From assembly GCF_044324785.1 (NCBI RefSeq), contig NZ_CP172127.1: a DNA stretch of 64,000 nucleotides; one strand, given 5' to 3'. The DNA comes from Escherichia coli (GTDB taxonomy: Bacteria; Pseudomonadota; Gammaproteobacteria; Enterobacterales; Enterobacteriaceae). Position 1 is the first letter of the stretch; the number at the start of each line of letters is the position of its first letter. This document shows positions 17,401 through 23,400 of the stretch, piece after piece. The position numbers were made by a program.

Positions 17401-20400
17401 GTGATATTGGCGGTATTGGTCGCCACGTTATCGTTGGTGGTTTTCAGCTGAGAGCCGTTAACCGCGTCGGTGCTGCCAGCCGCCAGTTCACCGGCTTTGA
17501 CGTTGGTGATTTTGTTGGTGGCATCGGTGCCGTGCGCGGCGCTGAATGCTTTCGCTGCATCATTCCACAGCAGAGAGTCATCACCGAGACTGTCAACAGC
17601 GTCAGTCAGGTTGGTGATGTTGGTGGTGTTCGTGGCGATATTGGTGGTGTTGGCTGCCACGGCATCGTTAGTGGTTTTGAGCTGAGAGCCGTTAACCGCG
17701 TCGGTGCTGCCAGCCGTCAGGTCACCGTCTTTGACGTTAGTGATTTTGCTGGTGGCATCGGTACCGTGTGCGGCGCTGAATGCTTTCGCTGCATCATTCC
17801 ACAGCAGAGAGTCATCACCGAGACTGTCAACAGCGTCAGTCAGGTTGGTGATGTTGGTGGTGTTCGTGGCGATATTGGTGGTGTTGGCTGCCACGGCATC
17901 GTTAGTGGTTTTGAGCTGAGAGCCGTTAACCGCGTCGGTGCTGCCAGCCGTCAGGTCACCGTCTTTGACGTTAGTGATTTTGCTGGTGGCATCGGTACCG
18001 TGTGCGGCGCTGAATGCTTTCGCTGCATCATTCCACAGCAGAGAGTCATCACCGAGACTGTCAACAGCGTCAGTCAGGTTGGTGATGTTGGTGGTGTTCG
18101 TGGCGATATTGGTGGTGTTGGCTGCCACGGCATCGTTAGTGGTTTTGAGCTGAGAGCCGTTAACAGCGTCGGTGCTGCCAGCCGTCAGGTCACCGTCTTT
18201 GACGTTGGTGATTTTGCTGGTGGCATCGGTGCCGTGCGCGGCGCTGAACGCGGTGCCATTCCACAGCAGGGCATCGTCTTTAAGGTCGCCAACGGAATCA
18301 GTCAGGTTGGTGATATTGGTGGTGTTGGTCGCTACGTTATCGTTGGTGGTTTTGAGCTGAGAGCCGTTAACCGCGTCAGTGCTGCCAGCCGTCAGGTCAC
18401 CGTCTTTGACGTTGGTGATTTTGCTGGTGGCATCGGTGCCGTGCGCGGCGCTGAACGCGGTGCCATTCCACAGCAGGGCATCGTCTTTAAGGTCGCCAAC
18501 GGAATCAGTCAGGTTGGTGATATTGGTGGTGTTGGTCGCTACGTTATCGTTGGTGGTTTTGAGCTGAGAGCCGTTAACCGCGTCAGTGCTGCCAGCCGTC
18601 AGGTCACCGTCTTTGACGTTAGTGATTTTGCTGGTGGCATCGGTGCCGTGCGCGGCGCTGAACGCGGTGCCATTCCACAGCAGGGCATCGTCTTTAAGGT
18701 CGCCAACGGAATCCGTCAGGGTATTGATACTGTTAGTGTTGGTGGTGATATTGGCAGTATTGGTCGCTACGTTATCGTTGGTGGTTTTCAGCTGAGAACC
18801 GTTAACCGCATCCTTACTGGTATCAGAAATAGCGCCGTCTTTAACGTTGGTGATGGTACTGGTAGTATCTGTACCATGTGCCGCACTATATGCCTTTTTA
18901 AGGGAGTCCCATTGTAACGTATTATTGTCCAGGCCCGTTAAGGCGTCGCCAACAGTGCCGAAAATACCACTTTTCAGCCTGTAATTTGGGGAAGTAACGA
19001 CGCCTTGCGCATTGACGGTAGCCCCCCCACCAAGATTGTCCGCTACTGACTTACTGATAGCATAAAGCTGTGATCCATTGATGGCATCAGTACTGGTAGT
19101 GCTGATATCACCTGCTGCCATATTGACAATTTGTCGCTGAGCTGTTGTGTTACCCACAGAAACAGTATCCGCGTCAGTCGCTACAGAACCAGCACCCAGA
19201 GCAACTGAATTTTTCCCCTGAGCACTGGCTTGAGCACCAATTGCAGTGCCATTTTCTAAACCGGCATAACTGCCTTGTCCAAGAGCAATAGCATTTACAC
19301 CACCTGTAATACTACCATTACCCAGCGCGATAGCATTTGCGCCGTCAGCTTTATTCCCTTGACCGATGGCAATTGCGCCAGCCGCTACTGCCTGACTTTG
19401 ATTGCCCAGAGCAATCGTGTTGTCGACATCTGCAATACTGCCGGAGCCCAACGCGATACTATTAAGTCCATTTGCCTCCGCGTTAGTACCAACTGCCGTC
19501 GCATTTTCAGCAGCTTTGCTCTCTGCACCCATAGCAATCGCGTTTGCGTCGCTGGCGGCGGATAGTCTGCCTAATGCGAGGCTGTCTACGCCAGCAGCAG
19601 CACTGTTACGGCCTACTGCAATCGCGTTAGCTGCAGATGCGGCACTACTTGCACCCAGCGCCATTGCATATTCTTTCGACGCATTAGCCGTTGCACCGAG
19701 GGCGATACTCATAATTCCTAAGGCCTTGCTCTTACGTCCAAATGCGATGGCGTCATCAGCACCAGTCTCTGCGTAATCCCCTTGTGCAATAGCAAATTCA
19801 CCTGTTGAGTTTGCATAACGACCAAGTGCGATTGAAAATCCACCCGTTGACGTTGCCGATGCACCTATAGCGAGGCTTCGCTCACCTGCTGAGATAGTGT
19901 TAATCCCTAACGCCACTGATGCTTCGCCAAGCGAATGGGTCTTAGCACCGAGGGCTGTTGACCACCTTCCGTCAGCAGTTGAGTGATAACCTACTGCGGT
20001 GCTGGAGCCACCCCCGGTGTCTGTAAAGCTATTTGCTTTTGCATCTTCACCGATAGCAACCCAGCCTGTTCCTGTGCCCTGGCCATAATTGACGCCCTGA
20101 CCGTTGTCAATCCCGGCATTCGCCAGTGCCCCAAACGACGACAACAACCCACCCGCAACCAGGGCAGAAATTAACAGCTTACTGCGCCCGCTCTTTTTGC
20201 CACGGCTTTTGGCCGTTTCGCTGGCAACGGTGTAACTGCCCGTAGCCGGATTCCAGATAACTTTAAAAATTTTGTTCATTATTGATGCTCTCTATTCCTT
20301 GATATAAGCGCAGAAGCTGCATTTATTTTTTGTTTTTTCGCTGCCGAGTTTCAGCAGGTTGAACAGTGTCGAACTGGAGATTGGCCATATTGATGGACAA

Positions 20401-23400
20401 CTTCAGATACTTCAGGTTATTAGGCGAAACGCCTTTTAATGTCAGATTAATGTCTTGCCATTGACCAGGCATTAATTGCAGAGTGGAATTCATGGTGGTG
20501 TTGAAAAGTAATTGTTGCCACTTTGCCAGAGCTTTGGCATCGGTGGGTCTTTCATTGCCCCATGTCGCATGAAAGCCAATATTTGATACGGGAACGCTTA
20601 AAAGGTTAACCAGCGAAATACGAATAACACTGCCATTTTCAACCGCATCAATAGCCAGCACCCGGCCTGCCAAACCGACCGATCCGTTATTTAAAATGAA
20701 ATATTGTGTTTGTGCTGGGTTAAATTCTGTAAAGACAAATTCGTCCTGCTTGTCTTTAACCGCTTTCACCACGCCAGCGAGCGTTTTGGTACTATTTATG
20801 ATGGTAGTTTGTTGTTTTTCAAAATGTTCTATCTTTCGCTTATCGAGTTCCTGTTGTTTCTCAAGCGCCTCAATTTTGCTTTTTTGCAACTCTTGCTGTG
20901 TAACGAGGTCGTCGACCTTACTCGCTTTTTCAATATAGTCACACCCTGCCAATAAGCAGAGAGGCACTATTATTAACACGCTTAACAGTGTTTTCTTTAG
21001 GTTCATAGGATGAATTCCTTTTCATAATCCCGATACGTTGATAATTACAGTACAATCATTTTTTTTATGAATGATTAGAGTGGGGCATATCCGCCAAATA
21101 AATTTGTTAGAGAATTTTTGTATTAATGGGTTGTGCGAATATGTTTTTAAGTGTCAAACAATTTTAGTTTGTAGCCAATAAATAAATTGATCGCGCGGAT
21201 TTTAATGATCGCTGTCAATCAATGTCAAATGTTTCACCGGATAAAGGCCCAGGGAAGGGAAAGGTAAATATTCAGTTGAGTGATGTTTTATTGCGAAGTT
21301 TGCGATGCTGATAGAAAAATTTAAATAATTAATTATGTTTCAAGCATTGATATGCGGTAATTCATTGCTGATATTGATACATCATTATTTAATTTGTACC
21401 TGCTTTTCAGAATTTAGCCTGCTCCGAGCGCTCAGAAGTGTAGGTGGAGTTGAATATATAATGTTAAGAACGTTACAAATATTCGATCTCTGAAACAGGC
21501 TCCTGCATGTGCCAGCAGGAGCGAGTAAATCGTGAGTGGCTGTAATTACAGCGACGAGAAAGGAACTTAAAACGCAGTCTTAGAGAATCCAGTCATCTCC
21601 TGCAGGCCCATTTCACGGCCCAGCGCGGTCATTGGGTGCACAACGACCAGTCCGCGAACGCTCTTCTTCAGTTTGCCCATATCAGCTTGCTCTTTTTTAG
21701 TAATCGCGCGCTGGAACGGCATCTTCATCAGCTTCTGTGCTTCCTTACTGAGTTTCTGGCTGTGAACTTCGCGCAGGCGAGCAATTTCTGCTTCCAGAGT
21801 GGCTTTCTCTTTTTCCAGTTCGGCATATTTGTCTGCGGCTTCCACCAGCGACAGATCGGCCTGCTGGTGACGGATGGCGTCCAGACGATCGCTGAGACGT
21901 TTGATTTCGTTTTTTTCGACTTCTTTCATGTGATGACTTCTGATAGAGATAAATTTATAGCCTCTAGTATGCGCGACCAGGTGCTTTGTTCACAACTGAT
22001 GACATTGCAATAGTTCTATAACGTAATCATTAACTTGCTTAAAAAGCACGCAATTTGTTGATTAATTAAGAAATTTAAAGAAAAAAGATAGTTAACAGAA
22101 GCGGATGATTATTGAGGATTGAGCACGTTTTCCTTAATGTCATTTATACCGGGATCTAAACTAAAATTGGCGGCCGCGCATTCCCGGCGCGGGGTAATAC
22201 GGAGATATCATCATGGGCAAATTAGGTGAAAACGTTCCGCTTCTTATCGATAAAGCCGTAGATTTCATGGCATCCAGCCAGGCGTTCCGGGAGTATCTGA
22301 AAAAACTACCTCCCCGTAACGCGATTCCGTCCGGAATACCTGATGAAAGCGTGCCGTTATATCTACAACGTCTGGAGTATTATCGTCGGCTTTATCGGCC
22401 GAAACAGGTAGAGGAGAAGTAAGCGAAAGTACTTACTTTTGAAAGGCTTTTTTTAAGCTGATTTTGGAAATCAGCTCTGTCAGTGAAAGGACCATTGTTG
22501 ATCGCACAGCCTGTTGGTAACGCTGAATTTGCATTGCATACAAACTGGAGTCTGCAGGTTCAAACTGTGGCGGCGGTGGTAACGCCGCCACGCAATGCAG
22601 TTCACCAAAGGGTCCAAGGATTTCGTCGTCGGTAAACGCGTACTCGTTGCCGTCGTGATTTAGCTCTTCACGCAATGCCATCAGTAGCTCCGCATCTTCG
22701 TATTCCTGGCGGTTAATGACGCCCAACCCGTAAATGAGTTTTAAACGCACAGAAAGCTCGCCCAGCGGACCGTCGCCGTCGAGTAACGGTTCTACAGCAT
22801 ACTTCACCGCGTAATCGTCTTTGCGGAATACCTGAAGCACCAGAAGATTTACCGCCTCGGTCAAAAGCTCGACGGCGGTGATCAGAAAGCTTCGCACGGT
22901 TTTGCCAGCATTCAGACGCTCAAGCACACGGTTTTCAAAGGCCTGGGTTTGTTCCATTGTTGCCTGCATATCTGACAATCTGTTATTCGGGCGCAGGGTG
23001 TCCTGCGCCTGGTCCACCATTATTGCATTGCTTTATAAGCGGTTACCGCCTCGGATACAACCTCGCTGTTGGCATCAAGACCGGAAATCTGTGCCAGCGC
23101 CGCCTGCGGACCTTTGTCAGCGATCAGTGCTGCCAGTTCCTGAGCCTGCGGATCATCTTCACTGCGGAAGTGCATTGCAGCGGCAATACCTTCAATCAGG
23201 TTTTTATGTGGCAGACCATATTCCAGCGTACCGAGCAGTGGCTTGATCAGACGGTCACCAGCGCTCAGTTTACGCAGCGGCTGACGGCCTACGCGCTCTA
23301 CATCATCTTTCAGATACGGGTTCTCAAAACGACCAAGGATTTTCTGGATGTACGCCGCATGTTTGTCCGCGTCAAAGCCGTAACGCTTGATCAGTACCGC

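What the first reader, a model, noticed from the sequence alone, without database searches (positions are those of the whole stretch)
20323..21006. Lipoprotein gene directly upstream of the adhesin, SadB-like arrangement
A 227-aa protein with lipobox LLAGC and an N-terminal coiled coil (QQELQKSKIEALEKQQELDKRKIEHFEKQQ) is encoded 43 bp upstream of and co-oriented with the adhesin gene. This matches the described Salmonella sadB-sadA arrangement, in which a trimeric inner-membrane lipoprotein assists surface display of the trimeric autotransporter. Whether this copy performs that role here is untested.
Basis: partly seen in the sequence, partly recalled or inferred. Interest (0 to 1): 0.45.

Follow-up and report, generated by a model that had tools for sequence, protein, structure and literature searches.

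The report
E. coli SadB-type adhesin helper lipoprotein

Summary
A 227-aa ORF lies at 20323..21006 on the minus strand. It has the lipobox LLAGC (Cys22), Asp at +2 and a long heptad region. It ends 43 bp before a co-oriented 1904-aa trimeric autotransporter adhesin (14565..20279).

The protein matches the Salmonella SadB crystal structure 4C47 over its full mature length without gaps (E = 2.2e-70, 54% identity). All nine heptad 'a' residues are identical to SadB. A predicted model has 4C47 as its top Foldseek hits. The locus is the same mtl-lld interval where sadBA sits.

The window is an E. coli chromosome. 4149 of 5426 complete E. coli genomes carry a homologue, which RefSeq names 'SadB/YajI family lipoprotein' or 'DUF3251 domain-containing protein'. 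Grin et al. (JBC 2014) already reported that the lipoprotein-adhesin operon is conserved in Escherichia and deleted in K-12. This is therefore already known.

The helper function of the E. coli copy remains inferred; I found no paper that tests it. Side observations:
- E. coli sadB alleles are very deeply diverged (as low as 67% aa identity, dS saturated, dN/dS about 0.1) and mosaic.
- The adhesin's membrane anchor is invariant across the compared strains.
- A promoter-like site is conserved upstream.

The parts
21199..21228 (-). Promoter-like site (TTGACA, 18 nt, TAAAAT) about 190 nt upstream of the lipoprotein start codon; candidate operon promoter
   Evidence: It is the best-scoring site in the scan, 11 of 12 matches. 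It lies in an island conserved between the UpaG-type and EhaG-type intergenic regions, which are otherwise about 40-50% identical; O104:H4 has TTGACA-18-TAGAAT. It is a consensus match only; the transcription start is not mapped.
21007..21566 (-). AT-rich intergenic region between yibL and the lipoprotein gene (35% GC), holding the promoter-like site and a Shine-Dalgarno-like AAGGAA upstream of the ATG
   Evidence: No Rfam family matches here.
20323..21006 (-). sadB orthologue: 227-aa inner-membrane lipoprotein precursor (mature 206 aa, about 23 kDa, pI about 9.1)
   Evidence: E = 2.2e-70 to 4C47, full length. 54% identity, ungapped. RefSeq names it 'SadB/YajI family lipoprotein' or 'DUF3251 domain-containing protein'. 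Mass and pI.
20941..21006 (-). Lipoprotein signal peptide, residues 1-22, lipobox LLAGC, lipidated Cys22; the next codon encodes Asp23, the +2 inner-membrane retention residue
   Evidence: Read from the sequence. Cys22 and the +2 Asp are also the features reported for SadB, whose inner-membrane location was shown experimentally (PMC3953254).
20728..20916 (-). Coiled-coil region, residues 31-93: nine heptads with a Gln-rich core (a = VQIQIQTVQ, d = LQLDFILVF)
   Evidence: Register analysis. AF2 predicts a helix at residues 29-89. SadB has nine heptads with four Gln at 'a' (PMC3953254).
20326..20727 (-). C-terminal beta-sandwich domain (residues 94-227), ending in a basic tail RQRKNKK
   Evidence: 57% identical to the SadB C-domain. 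The AF2 model has strands plus a loop helix at 157-168. Top Foldseek hits are 4C47 A/B/C, with YajI 2JWY as a distant hit.
20280..20322 (-). 43-bp spacer with a ribosome-binding region (AAGGAATAGAGAG) for the adhesin; no terminator
   Evidence: The length is identical in four other E. coli strains with UpaG or EhaG partners.
14565..20279 (-). Trimeric autotransporter adhesin, 1904 aa (an allele of the adhesin annotated UpaG/EhaG, the positional orthologues of SadA): ESPR signal peptide, YadA head repeats, repetitive stalk, YadA anchor
   Evidence: Pfam. The last 400 aa are 93-97% identical to UpaG/EhaG and the last 100 aa are 100% identical. Tandem repeats of 234, 207 and 300 bp.
14391..14420 (-). 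Terminator-like hairpin (13 pairs, followed by a T-rich tail) downstream of the adhesin stop; candidate end of the operon
   Evidence: consensus match only.

Best explanation
The ORF at 20323..21006 (minus strand) is the E. coli orthologue of Salmonella sadB. It forms a two-gene operon with the downstream trimeric autotransporter adhesin. The likely mechanism has five steps. (1) The precursor is exported by Sec, lipidated on Cys22 and cleaved. This is inferred from the lipobox. (2) Asp at +2 keeps it in the inner membrane, facing the periplasm. This is inferred from the sequence and was shown for SadB. (3) Tethered at high local concentration, it trimerises through a weak, Gln-rich nine-heptad coiled coil and presents three beta-sandwich domains. 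This is inferred by homology to the 4C47 crystal trimer. (4) It acts transiently on the three unfolded adhesin chains as they leave the Sec translocon. This raises the amount and the correct register and folding of the long, repetitive passenger that reaches the surface through the BAM-inserted anchor. For SadB the effect on display is shown; the contact with the adhesin and the 'trimerisation/register' idea are the authors' hypothesis. (5) It is a helper, not an essential factor.
For: Homology:
- Full-length ungapped match to SadB structure 4C47, E = 2.2e-70, 54% identity.
- Profile search of the PDB: E = 2.8e-113.
- Foldseek top hits 4C47 A/B/C, E = 1e-19.

Family features:
- Lipobox LLAGC, Cys22 and Asp23.
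- Nine heptads with all 'a' residues identical to SadB, and the same polar N-terminal half: 20 of 28 residues polar and 13 charged, against 22 and 14 in SadB.

Operon anatomy:
- Co-oriented genes, 43-bp spacer, no terminator-like site in the spacer, terminator-like hairpin after the adhesin, conserved promoter-like site upstream.
- The spacer length is identical in four other E. coli loci.

Position and maintenance:
- Located between the mtl and lld operons as described for sadBA (PMC3953254).
- Homologue in 4149 of 5426 complete E. coli genomes, with dN/dS of 0.09-0.12.

Function of the family, all on the Salmonella proteins:
- SadB raises SadA surface display 4-6 fold in E. coli, lowers aberrant aggregation and raises protease resistance (PMC3953254).
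- About 3-fold higher display in S. Typhimurium (PMC11054257).

Consistent with a non-essential helper: a truncated UpaG assembles within seconds in K-12 strain AD202 (PMC5670179). Grin et al. report that K-12 has lost the lipoprotein gene.
Against: No experiment on the E. coli protein was found in the searchable literature. The function is carried over from a 54%-identical orthologue. For SadB itself, a direct interaction with SadA could not be shown by phage display or by cross-linking (PMC3953254), so the mechanistic core is hypothetical. Trimerisation of SadB was not seen in solution and could not be tested here. The AF2 model is only moderately confident (mean pLDDT 64). Neither Pfam nor NCBIfam in the versions used recognises the protein above threshold.
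Confidence: 0.85

Rival explanations
1. It is a SadB-family lipoprotein, but its real role is not assistance of adhesin export. It could be an envelope-stress or regulatory function, or a structural tether. Its linkage to the adhesin would then reflect co-inheritance of a variable island, not functional coupling.
For: No direct SadB-SadA contact has ever been shown (PMC3953254). The paralogue YajI is not linked to any autotransporter. In one genome the adhesin is split by ISEc35 while the lipoprotein gene stays intact. The lipoprotein gene has a much lower GC content (41.5%) than the adhesin gene (52.9%).
Against: SadB measurably raises SadA display in two independent studies. The 43-bp spacing and co-orientation are preserved across alleles that differ by up to 33% in protein sequence. 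Grin et al. report that strains lacking the adhesin, such as K-12, lack the lipoprotein gene too.
Confidence: 0.08
2. It is a decaying or silent remnant: an intact reading frame that is not expressed or not functional in this strain.
For: The upstream region is AT-rich (35% GC), and upaG is cited as H-NS-repressed (PMC5012682). Grin et al. could not detect native sadBA expression in culture.
Against: The frame is intact, with all family features kept. Purifying selection is strong, dN/dS about 0.1. 4129 genomes carry a match covering at least 80% of the gene. The partner adhesin is also intact here at 1904 aa with ESPR and anchor. Silencing in culture is not loss of function.
Confidence: 0.04
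3. It is a copy of the paralogue YajI (DUF3251) rather than of SadB.
For: RefSeq often labels it 'DUF3251 domain-containing protein'. Foldseek gives a distant hit to YajI 2JWY (E = 5.6e-3, 14% identity).
Against: It is 54% identical to SadB against about 14% to YajI. Pfam DUF3251 does not match this protein and only weakly matches 2 of 5 relatives. Sequence searches of the PDB do not retrieve 2JWY even with a profile. The locus is mtl-lld, not yajC-secDF / nrdR.
Confidence: 0.02

Closest known systems
SadB (STM3690) of Salmonella enterica, PDB 4C47; Grin et al., J Biol Chem 2014 (PMC3953254)
   Same: Same length class. Same lipobox Cys22 and +2 Asp. Nine-heptad Gln-rich coiled coil with identical 'a' residues. 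Homologous beta-sandwich C-domain (57% identity). Same position directly upstream of an ESPR-bearing trimeric autotransporter, between the mtl and lld operons. Spacer of 43 bp against 44 bp.
   Different: 54% rather than 100% identity. One core 'd' Gln is replaced by Asp, and other 'd' residues differ (L/M, F/L, L/V). The partner adhesin is a 1904-aa allele of the E. coli UpaG/EhaG adhesin, not SadA. No experimental data exist for this copy.
Lipoproteins upstream of upaG (Nissle/CFT073 type) and ehaG (O104:H4, O55:H7 type) in E. coli, annotated 'SadB/YajI family lipoprotein' or 'DUF3251 domain-containing protein'
   Same: Same gene at the same locus with the same 43-bp spacer. The protein is 100% identical to WP_001049676.1 of strain N3.
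   Different: 89% aa identity to the UpaG-linked allele and 67% to the EhaG-linked alleles. The window allele is a mosaic relative to the Nissle allele.
YajI of E. coli (PDB 2JWY, Pfam DUF3251)
   Same: Enterobacterial lipoprotein paralogue with the same beta-sandwich topology (Grin et al.). Distant Foldseek hit.
   Different: About 14% identity. Different conserved locus. Not linked to any autotransporter. Function unknown.
TpgA of Acinetobacter sp. Tol 5, helper of the adhesin AtaA
   Same: According to a 2026 survey (bioRxiv 10.64898/2026.01.22.700529), it is the only other described accessory protein encoded next to a trimeric autotransporter that promotes its surface display.
   Different: It is an unrelated protein with a BamE-like domain plus an OmpA peptidoglycan-binding domain, and it acts at the outer membrane and cell wall. 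No such domains are found here.

Membership tests
SadB family (trimeric inner-membrane lipoprotein helper of trimeric autotransporters) | Significant full-length sequence homology to SadB | tested here: met
   phmmer against the PDB: 4C47_A, E = 2.2e-70, query 23-227 to chain 3-207, no gaps. 110/205 identical. Profile E = 2.8e-113.
SadB family (trimeric inner-membrane lipoprotein helper of trimeric autotransporters) | Lipoprotein signal peptide with lipobox and a lipidated Cys at position 22 | tested here: met
   MNLKKTLLSVLIIVPLCLLAGC, lipobox LLAGC. SadB's lipidated residue is Cys-22. Lipidation itself was not tested.
SadB family (trimeric inner-membrane lipoprotein helper of trimeric autotransporters) | Asp at +2 after the lipidated Cys (inner-membrane retention); inner-membrane localisation | tested here: met
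   Asp23 is present and invariant in all five aligned sequences. This is a sequence signal only; actual localisation needs fractionation, as was done for SadB.
SadB family (trimeric inner-membrane lipoprotein helper of trimeric autotransporters) | [quoted passage not shown] | tested here: met
   The register has a = VQIQIQTVQ, identical to SadB, and d = LQLDFILVF. It is the best of the seven possible registers. AF2 predicts a helix at 29-89.
SadB family (trimeric inner-membrane lipoprotein helper of trimeric autotransporters) | C-terminal beta-sandwich (Ig-variant, MATH-like) domain with a helix in the long beta5-beta6 loop | tested here: met
   57% identity over residues 88-227. The AF2 model has strands plus helix 157-168. 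Foldseek top hits are 4C47 A/B/C at probability 1.00. Model confidence is moderate (pLDDT 64).
SadB family (trimeric inner-membrane lipoprotein helper of trimeric autotransporters) | Homotrimer | not testable with these tools
   Only monomer prediction is available. SadB is trimeric in the crystal but not in solution.
SadB family (trimeric inner-membrane lipoprotein helper of trimeric autotransporters) | Encoded directly upstream of, co-oriented with, and closely spaced to a trimeric autotransporter gene, between the mtl and lld operons | tested here: met
   43-bp spacer. Gene order lldP - adhesin - lipoprotein gene - yibL - yibT - mtlR - mtlD - mtlA. The adhesin has ESPR plus YadA head, stalk and anchor.
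SadB family (trimeric inner-membrane lipoprotein helper of trimeric autotransporters) | Enhances surface display and folding of the cognate adhesin | not testable with these tools
   Shown only for Salmonella SadB with SadA. No data were found for the E. coli copy.
YajI / Pfam DUF3251 | Match to the DUF3251 profile | tested here: not met
   No DUF3251 hit for this protein at E <= 10. Only 2 of 5 relatives reach E <= 0.1, best 9.2e-3.
YajI / Pfam DUF3251 | Conserved locus between yajC-secDF and nrdR-ribDE-nusB | tested here: not met
   The gene lies between yibL/mtl and lld. The YajI locus is as described in PMC3953254.
TpgA-type helper of trimeric autotransporters | BamE-like domain, with or without an OmpA peptidoglycan-binding domain | tested here: not met
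   No such Pfam domains are found.

The most novel reading that the evidence does not exclude
Within one species, sadB exists as very old, mosaic alleles: 67-89% aa identity, synonymous sites saturated, yet dN/dS about 0.1. Divergence is concentrated in part of the beta-sandwich domain and in the adjoining adhesin head, while the adhesin's anchor is invariant. If this reflects allele-specific matching of the helper's C-domain to its cognate passenger rather than mere linkage in a recombining island, the natural allele pairs would show where SadB touches the adhesin, a contact that has never been demonstrated.
Probability: 0.1. Interest if true: 0.4.

Novelty: already known. Interest (0 to 1): 0.1.

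Why it matters
The finding correctly labels a gene that many E. coli RefSeq records still call only 'DUF3251 domain-containing protein' or 'hypothetical protein'. It also shows that the adhesin here comes with its dedicated helper. In practice, work that clones upaG/ehaG-type adhesins alone into K-12, which Grin et al. report lacks the helper, may underestimate surface display. It adds nothing new to the biology of type Vc secretion, because the family, its structure and its conservation in Escherichia were published in 2014.

Tried and rejected
- Pfam-A scan of the protein gave no significant domain, only a chance ETRAMP hit at E = 0.18. Scanning five relatives gave only weak DUF3251 hits in two of them.
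- NCBIfam gave nothing near any curated cut-off. The best hits were coiled-coil or lipoprotein noise, plus a weak hit to a model labelled 'hypothetical protein' (PRK11530, E = 0.0047).
- Sequence and profile searches of the PDB did not retrieve the paralogue YajI. Only the fold comparison did, and weakly.
- Rfam found no RNA element in or near the operon.
- The Totsika et al. 2012 paper on EhaG/UpaG (PMC3302597) is not held, so H-NS repression is cited second-hand.
- I considered a YajI copy, a pseudogene and a chance ORF and rejected all three (see rival explanations).
- The PDB match, the E. coli genome survey and the 2026 survey reporting 106 SadB homologues, all in Enterobacterales, already answer the question.
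Full report
**1. The observation**

The ORF list shows a 227-aa ORF at 20323..21006 on the minus strand. A 1904-aa ORF at 14565..20279 lies on the same strand. The lipoprotein stop codon ends at 20323 and the adhesin ATG is at 20279, which leaves 43 intergenic bases.

The protein begins MNLKKTLLSVLIIVPLCLLAGC|DYIEK. The lipobox LLAGC is at residues 18-22, the Cys is residue 22 and an Asp follows it.

The downstream protein is a trimeric autotransporter. Its first 400 residues match ESPR (E = 3.2e-16) and many YadA_head repeats. Its last 400 residues match YadA_stalk three times and YadA_anchor (E = 8.5e-20).

**2. What it is**

A phmmer search of all PDB chains returns one strong hit, 4C47 chain A, 'inner membrane lipoprotein'. 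The E-value is 2.2e-70. The alignment covers query residues 23-227 against chain residues 3-207 with no gap.

4C47 is the crystal structure of Salmonella enterica SadB (description; PMC3953254). Identity is 110/205, or 54%. It is 46% in the helical N-terminal part and 57% in the C-terminal domain.

I derived the heptad register from the published description of SadB: nine heptads, with four Gln at position 'a' and two at 'd'. Applied to the window protein, it gives a = VQIQIQTVQ. This is identical to SadB at all nine positions. The 'd' positions are LQLDFILVF against MQLQLIVVF in SadB. This register is clearly the best of the seven possible. [quoted passage not shown]

An AlphaFold2 model was built from a five-sequence alignment. 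Its confidence is only moderate (mean pLDDT 64). It predicts a single long helix at residues 29-89, followed by a strand-rich domain with a helix at 157-168. Grin et al. describe a short helix in the long beta5-beta6 loop of SadB.

Foldseek against the PDB ranks 4C47 chains A, B and C first (E = 1e-19 to 2e-17, probability 1.00, 53-55% identity). The paralogue YajI (2JWY) is a distant hit at E = 5.6e-3 and 14% identity.

**3. Context**

The window is an E. coli chromosome. The 1-kb region around the gene is 100% identical to strain N3.

The gene order in the window is tdh ... lldD-lldR-lldP, then the adhesin, the lipoprotein gene, yibL, yibT, mtlR-mtlD-mtlA, yibI-yibH, then an Imm57/RHS module and selAB.

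Grin et al. describe this same mtl-lld interval as the conserved site of the sadBA operon in Escherichia, Salmonella and Shigella. They report a 44-bp spacer in Salmonella and a 5-kb deletion of both genes in K-12.

RefSeq annotates the gene as 'SadB/YajI family lipoprotein' in newer records. Older records call it 'DUF3251 domain-containing protein' or 'hypothetical protein'.

A sensitive blastn of the gene finds a homologue in 4149 of 5426 complete E. coli genomes. It is always chromosomal and almost always single-copy.

**4. Operon anatomy**

- No terminator-like site lies in the 43-bp spacer.
- The spacer carries AAGGAATAGAGAG ahead of the adhesin ATG.
- The spacer is 43 bp in all four comparator strains, whether the partner is annotated UpaG or EhaG.
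- A 13-pair hairpin with a T-rich tail follows the adhesin stop, at 14420..14391.
- Upstream, the best sigma-70-like site in the region is TTGACA-18-TAAAAT at 21228..21199. It lies in a short island conserved between UpaG-type and EhaG-type intergenic regions, which are otherwise only about 40-50% identical.
- The intergenic region is 35% GC. upaG is cited as H-NS-repressed (PMC5012682), but I could not read the primary paper.

These signals are consensus matches. Co-transcription is inferred, not shown.

**5. Mechanism**

What is shown, for Salmonella SadB only:
- It is a tri-acylated lipoprotein of the inner membrane.
- It crystallises as a coiled-coil trimer with three beta-sandwich domains.
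- Co-expression with SadA raises surface display 4-6 fold in E. coli. It also reduces aberrant aggregation and increases protease resistance of SadA.
- It improves display in Salmonella.
- An independent study found about 3-fold higher display with SadB (PMC11054257).

What is not shown:
- No direct contact has been found. Phage display did not converge and cross-linking failed.
- The idea that SadB aligns or trimerises the three unfolded chains, by analogy with TRAF/MATH domains, is the authors' hypothesis.

For the copy in this window everything functional is inferred by orthology. Three literature searches found no experiment on the E. coli lipoprotein.

A truncated UpaG (anchor plus 80 passenger residues) assembles within seconds in K-12 strain AD202 (PMC5670179). 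Grin et al. report that K-12 lacks the lipoprotein gene. This fits a helper that matters for long, repetitive passengers rather than for anchor insertion.

**6. Rivals**

- A YajI copy is excluded by identity (54% against about 14%), by the lack of a DUF3251 match and by the locus.
- A decaying gene is unlikely. dN/dS is 0.09-0.12, all family features are preserved, and both partner genes are intact here.
- A SadB-family protein with a different true role cannot be excluded, because contact with the adhesin has never been shown. The conserved tight coupling and two independent display experiments argue against it.

**7. Side observations**

The lipoprotein is unusually diverged within the species. 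It is 89% identical to the UpaG-linked allele (Nissle) and 67% identical to the EhaG-linked alleles (O104:H4, O55:H7). All E. coli alleles are 50-53% identical to SadB. Synonymous divergence is 0.70 against Nissle and 1.9 against O104, the latter effectively saturated.

By contrast, the adhesin's last 100 residues are 100% identical in all compared strains, and its last 400 residues are 93-97% identical.

A sliding comparison shows that the window allele is a mosaic relative to Nissle:

| Segment | DNA identity to Nissle |
|---|---|
| Intergenic region, signal peptide and coil | 89-98% |
| Middle of the C-domain (about 20377-20677) | 70-83% |
| End of the gene, spacer and start of the ESPR | 93% |
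| Adhesin head | 45-65% |

The simplest reading is recombination among old haplotypes at a variable surface-antigen locus. Allele-specific matching between helper and passenger is possible but unsupported.

**8. Verdict**

The gene is a clear orthologue of SadB in the canonical arrangement. The arrangement in Escherichia is published (Grin et al. 2014), was recovered in a 2026 survey and is annotated in RefSeq. Novelty is therefore 'already known' and interest is low.

Noticed in passing
window 20323-21006 compared with L003, L004 and L005: Alleles of the lipoprotein gene within E. coli are very deeply diverged: 89% and 67% aa identity, dS 0.70 and about 1.9, dN/dS 0.09-0.12. The genome survey shows three identity classes: 745 genomes at >=95%, 1121 at 80-90% and 2271 at 60-80%. 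Even the neighbouring yibL, whose protein is identical, has dS 0.25-0.31.
   Followed up: partly
window 20377-20677, inside the C-domain coding part, and 18500-20100, the adhesin head: The window allele is a mosaic relative to the Nissle (UpaG) locus. The intergenic region, signal peptide and coil are 89-98% identical, the mid C-domain 70-83%, the 3' end plus spacer plus ESPR 93%, and the adhesin head 45-65%. Recombination breakpoints seem to fall inside the lipoprotein gene.
   Followed up: partly
window 14565-14864, the last 100 codons of the adhesin: The adhesin's membrane anchor is 100% identical at protein level across the UpaG-type, EhaG-type and window alleles, and the last 400 aa are 93-97% identical. 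The head and the helper lipoprotein vary strongly.
   Followed up: partly
window 21199-21228 (minus strand): A near-consensus promoter-like site (TTGACA, 18 nt, TAAAAT) sits in a short conserved island within an intergenic region that is otherwise about 40-50% identical between UpaG-type and EhaG-type loci. The region is 35% GC.
   Followed up: partly
window 16459-18809, inside the adhesin gene: There are tandem repeats of 234 bp (4.1 copies, 95% matches), 207 bp (3.1 copies, 96%) and 300 bp (2 copies, 79%). The adhesin is 1904 aa here but 1804 aa in strain N3, which is otherwise identical at both ends. The difference lies within 16616-18166, so repeat copy number varies between near-identical strains.
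   Followed up: partly
L001 (NZ_CM151361.1) 2555-9807: In a urine isolate the adhesin gene is split by an ISEc35 insertion, while the upstream SadB-type gene stays intact.
   Followed up: no
window 20323-21006 versus 14565-20279: GC content steps from 41.5% in the lipoprotein gene to 52.9% in the adhesin gene (window mean 51.8%), although the two lie in one apparent operon.
   Followed up: no
window 28672-34172 (minus strand): An RHS element core protein (1380 aa, 30030-34172) is followed by small ORFs, including an Imm57-family immunity protein (28672-29193). This toxin/immunity module lies next to yibH.
   Followed up: no
window 61868-61910 (+): This is the only Rfam match above the gathering score in the whole window: ES036 (CssrF) sRNA, 38.9 bits against a 37.6 threshold.
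   Followed up: no
window 23020-24351 (minus strand): The mechanical ORF for mtlD is 443 aa. The annotated gene in related strains is 1149 bp (382 aa). The ORF simply extends upstream into the end of mtlA, so it is an ORF-calling artefact and not a longer protein.
   Followed up: partly
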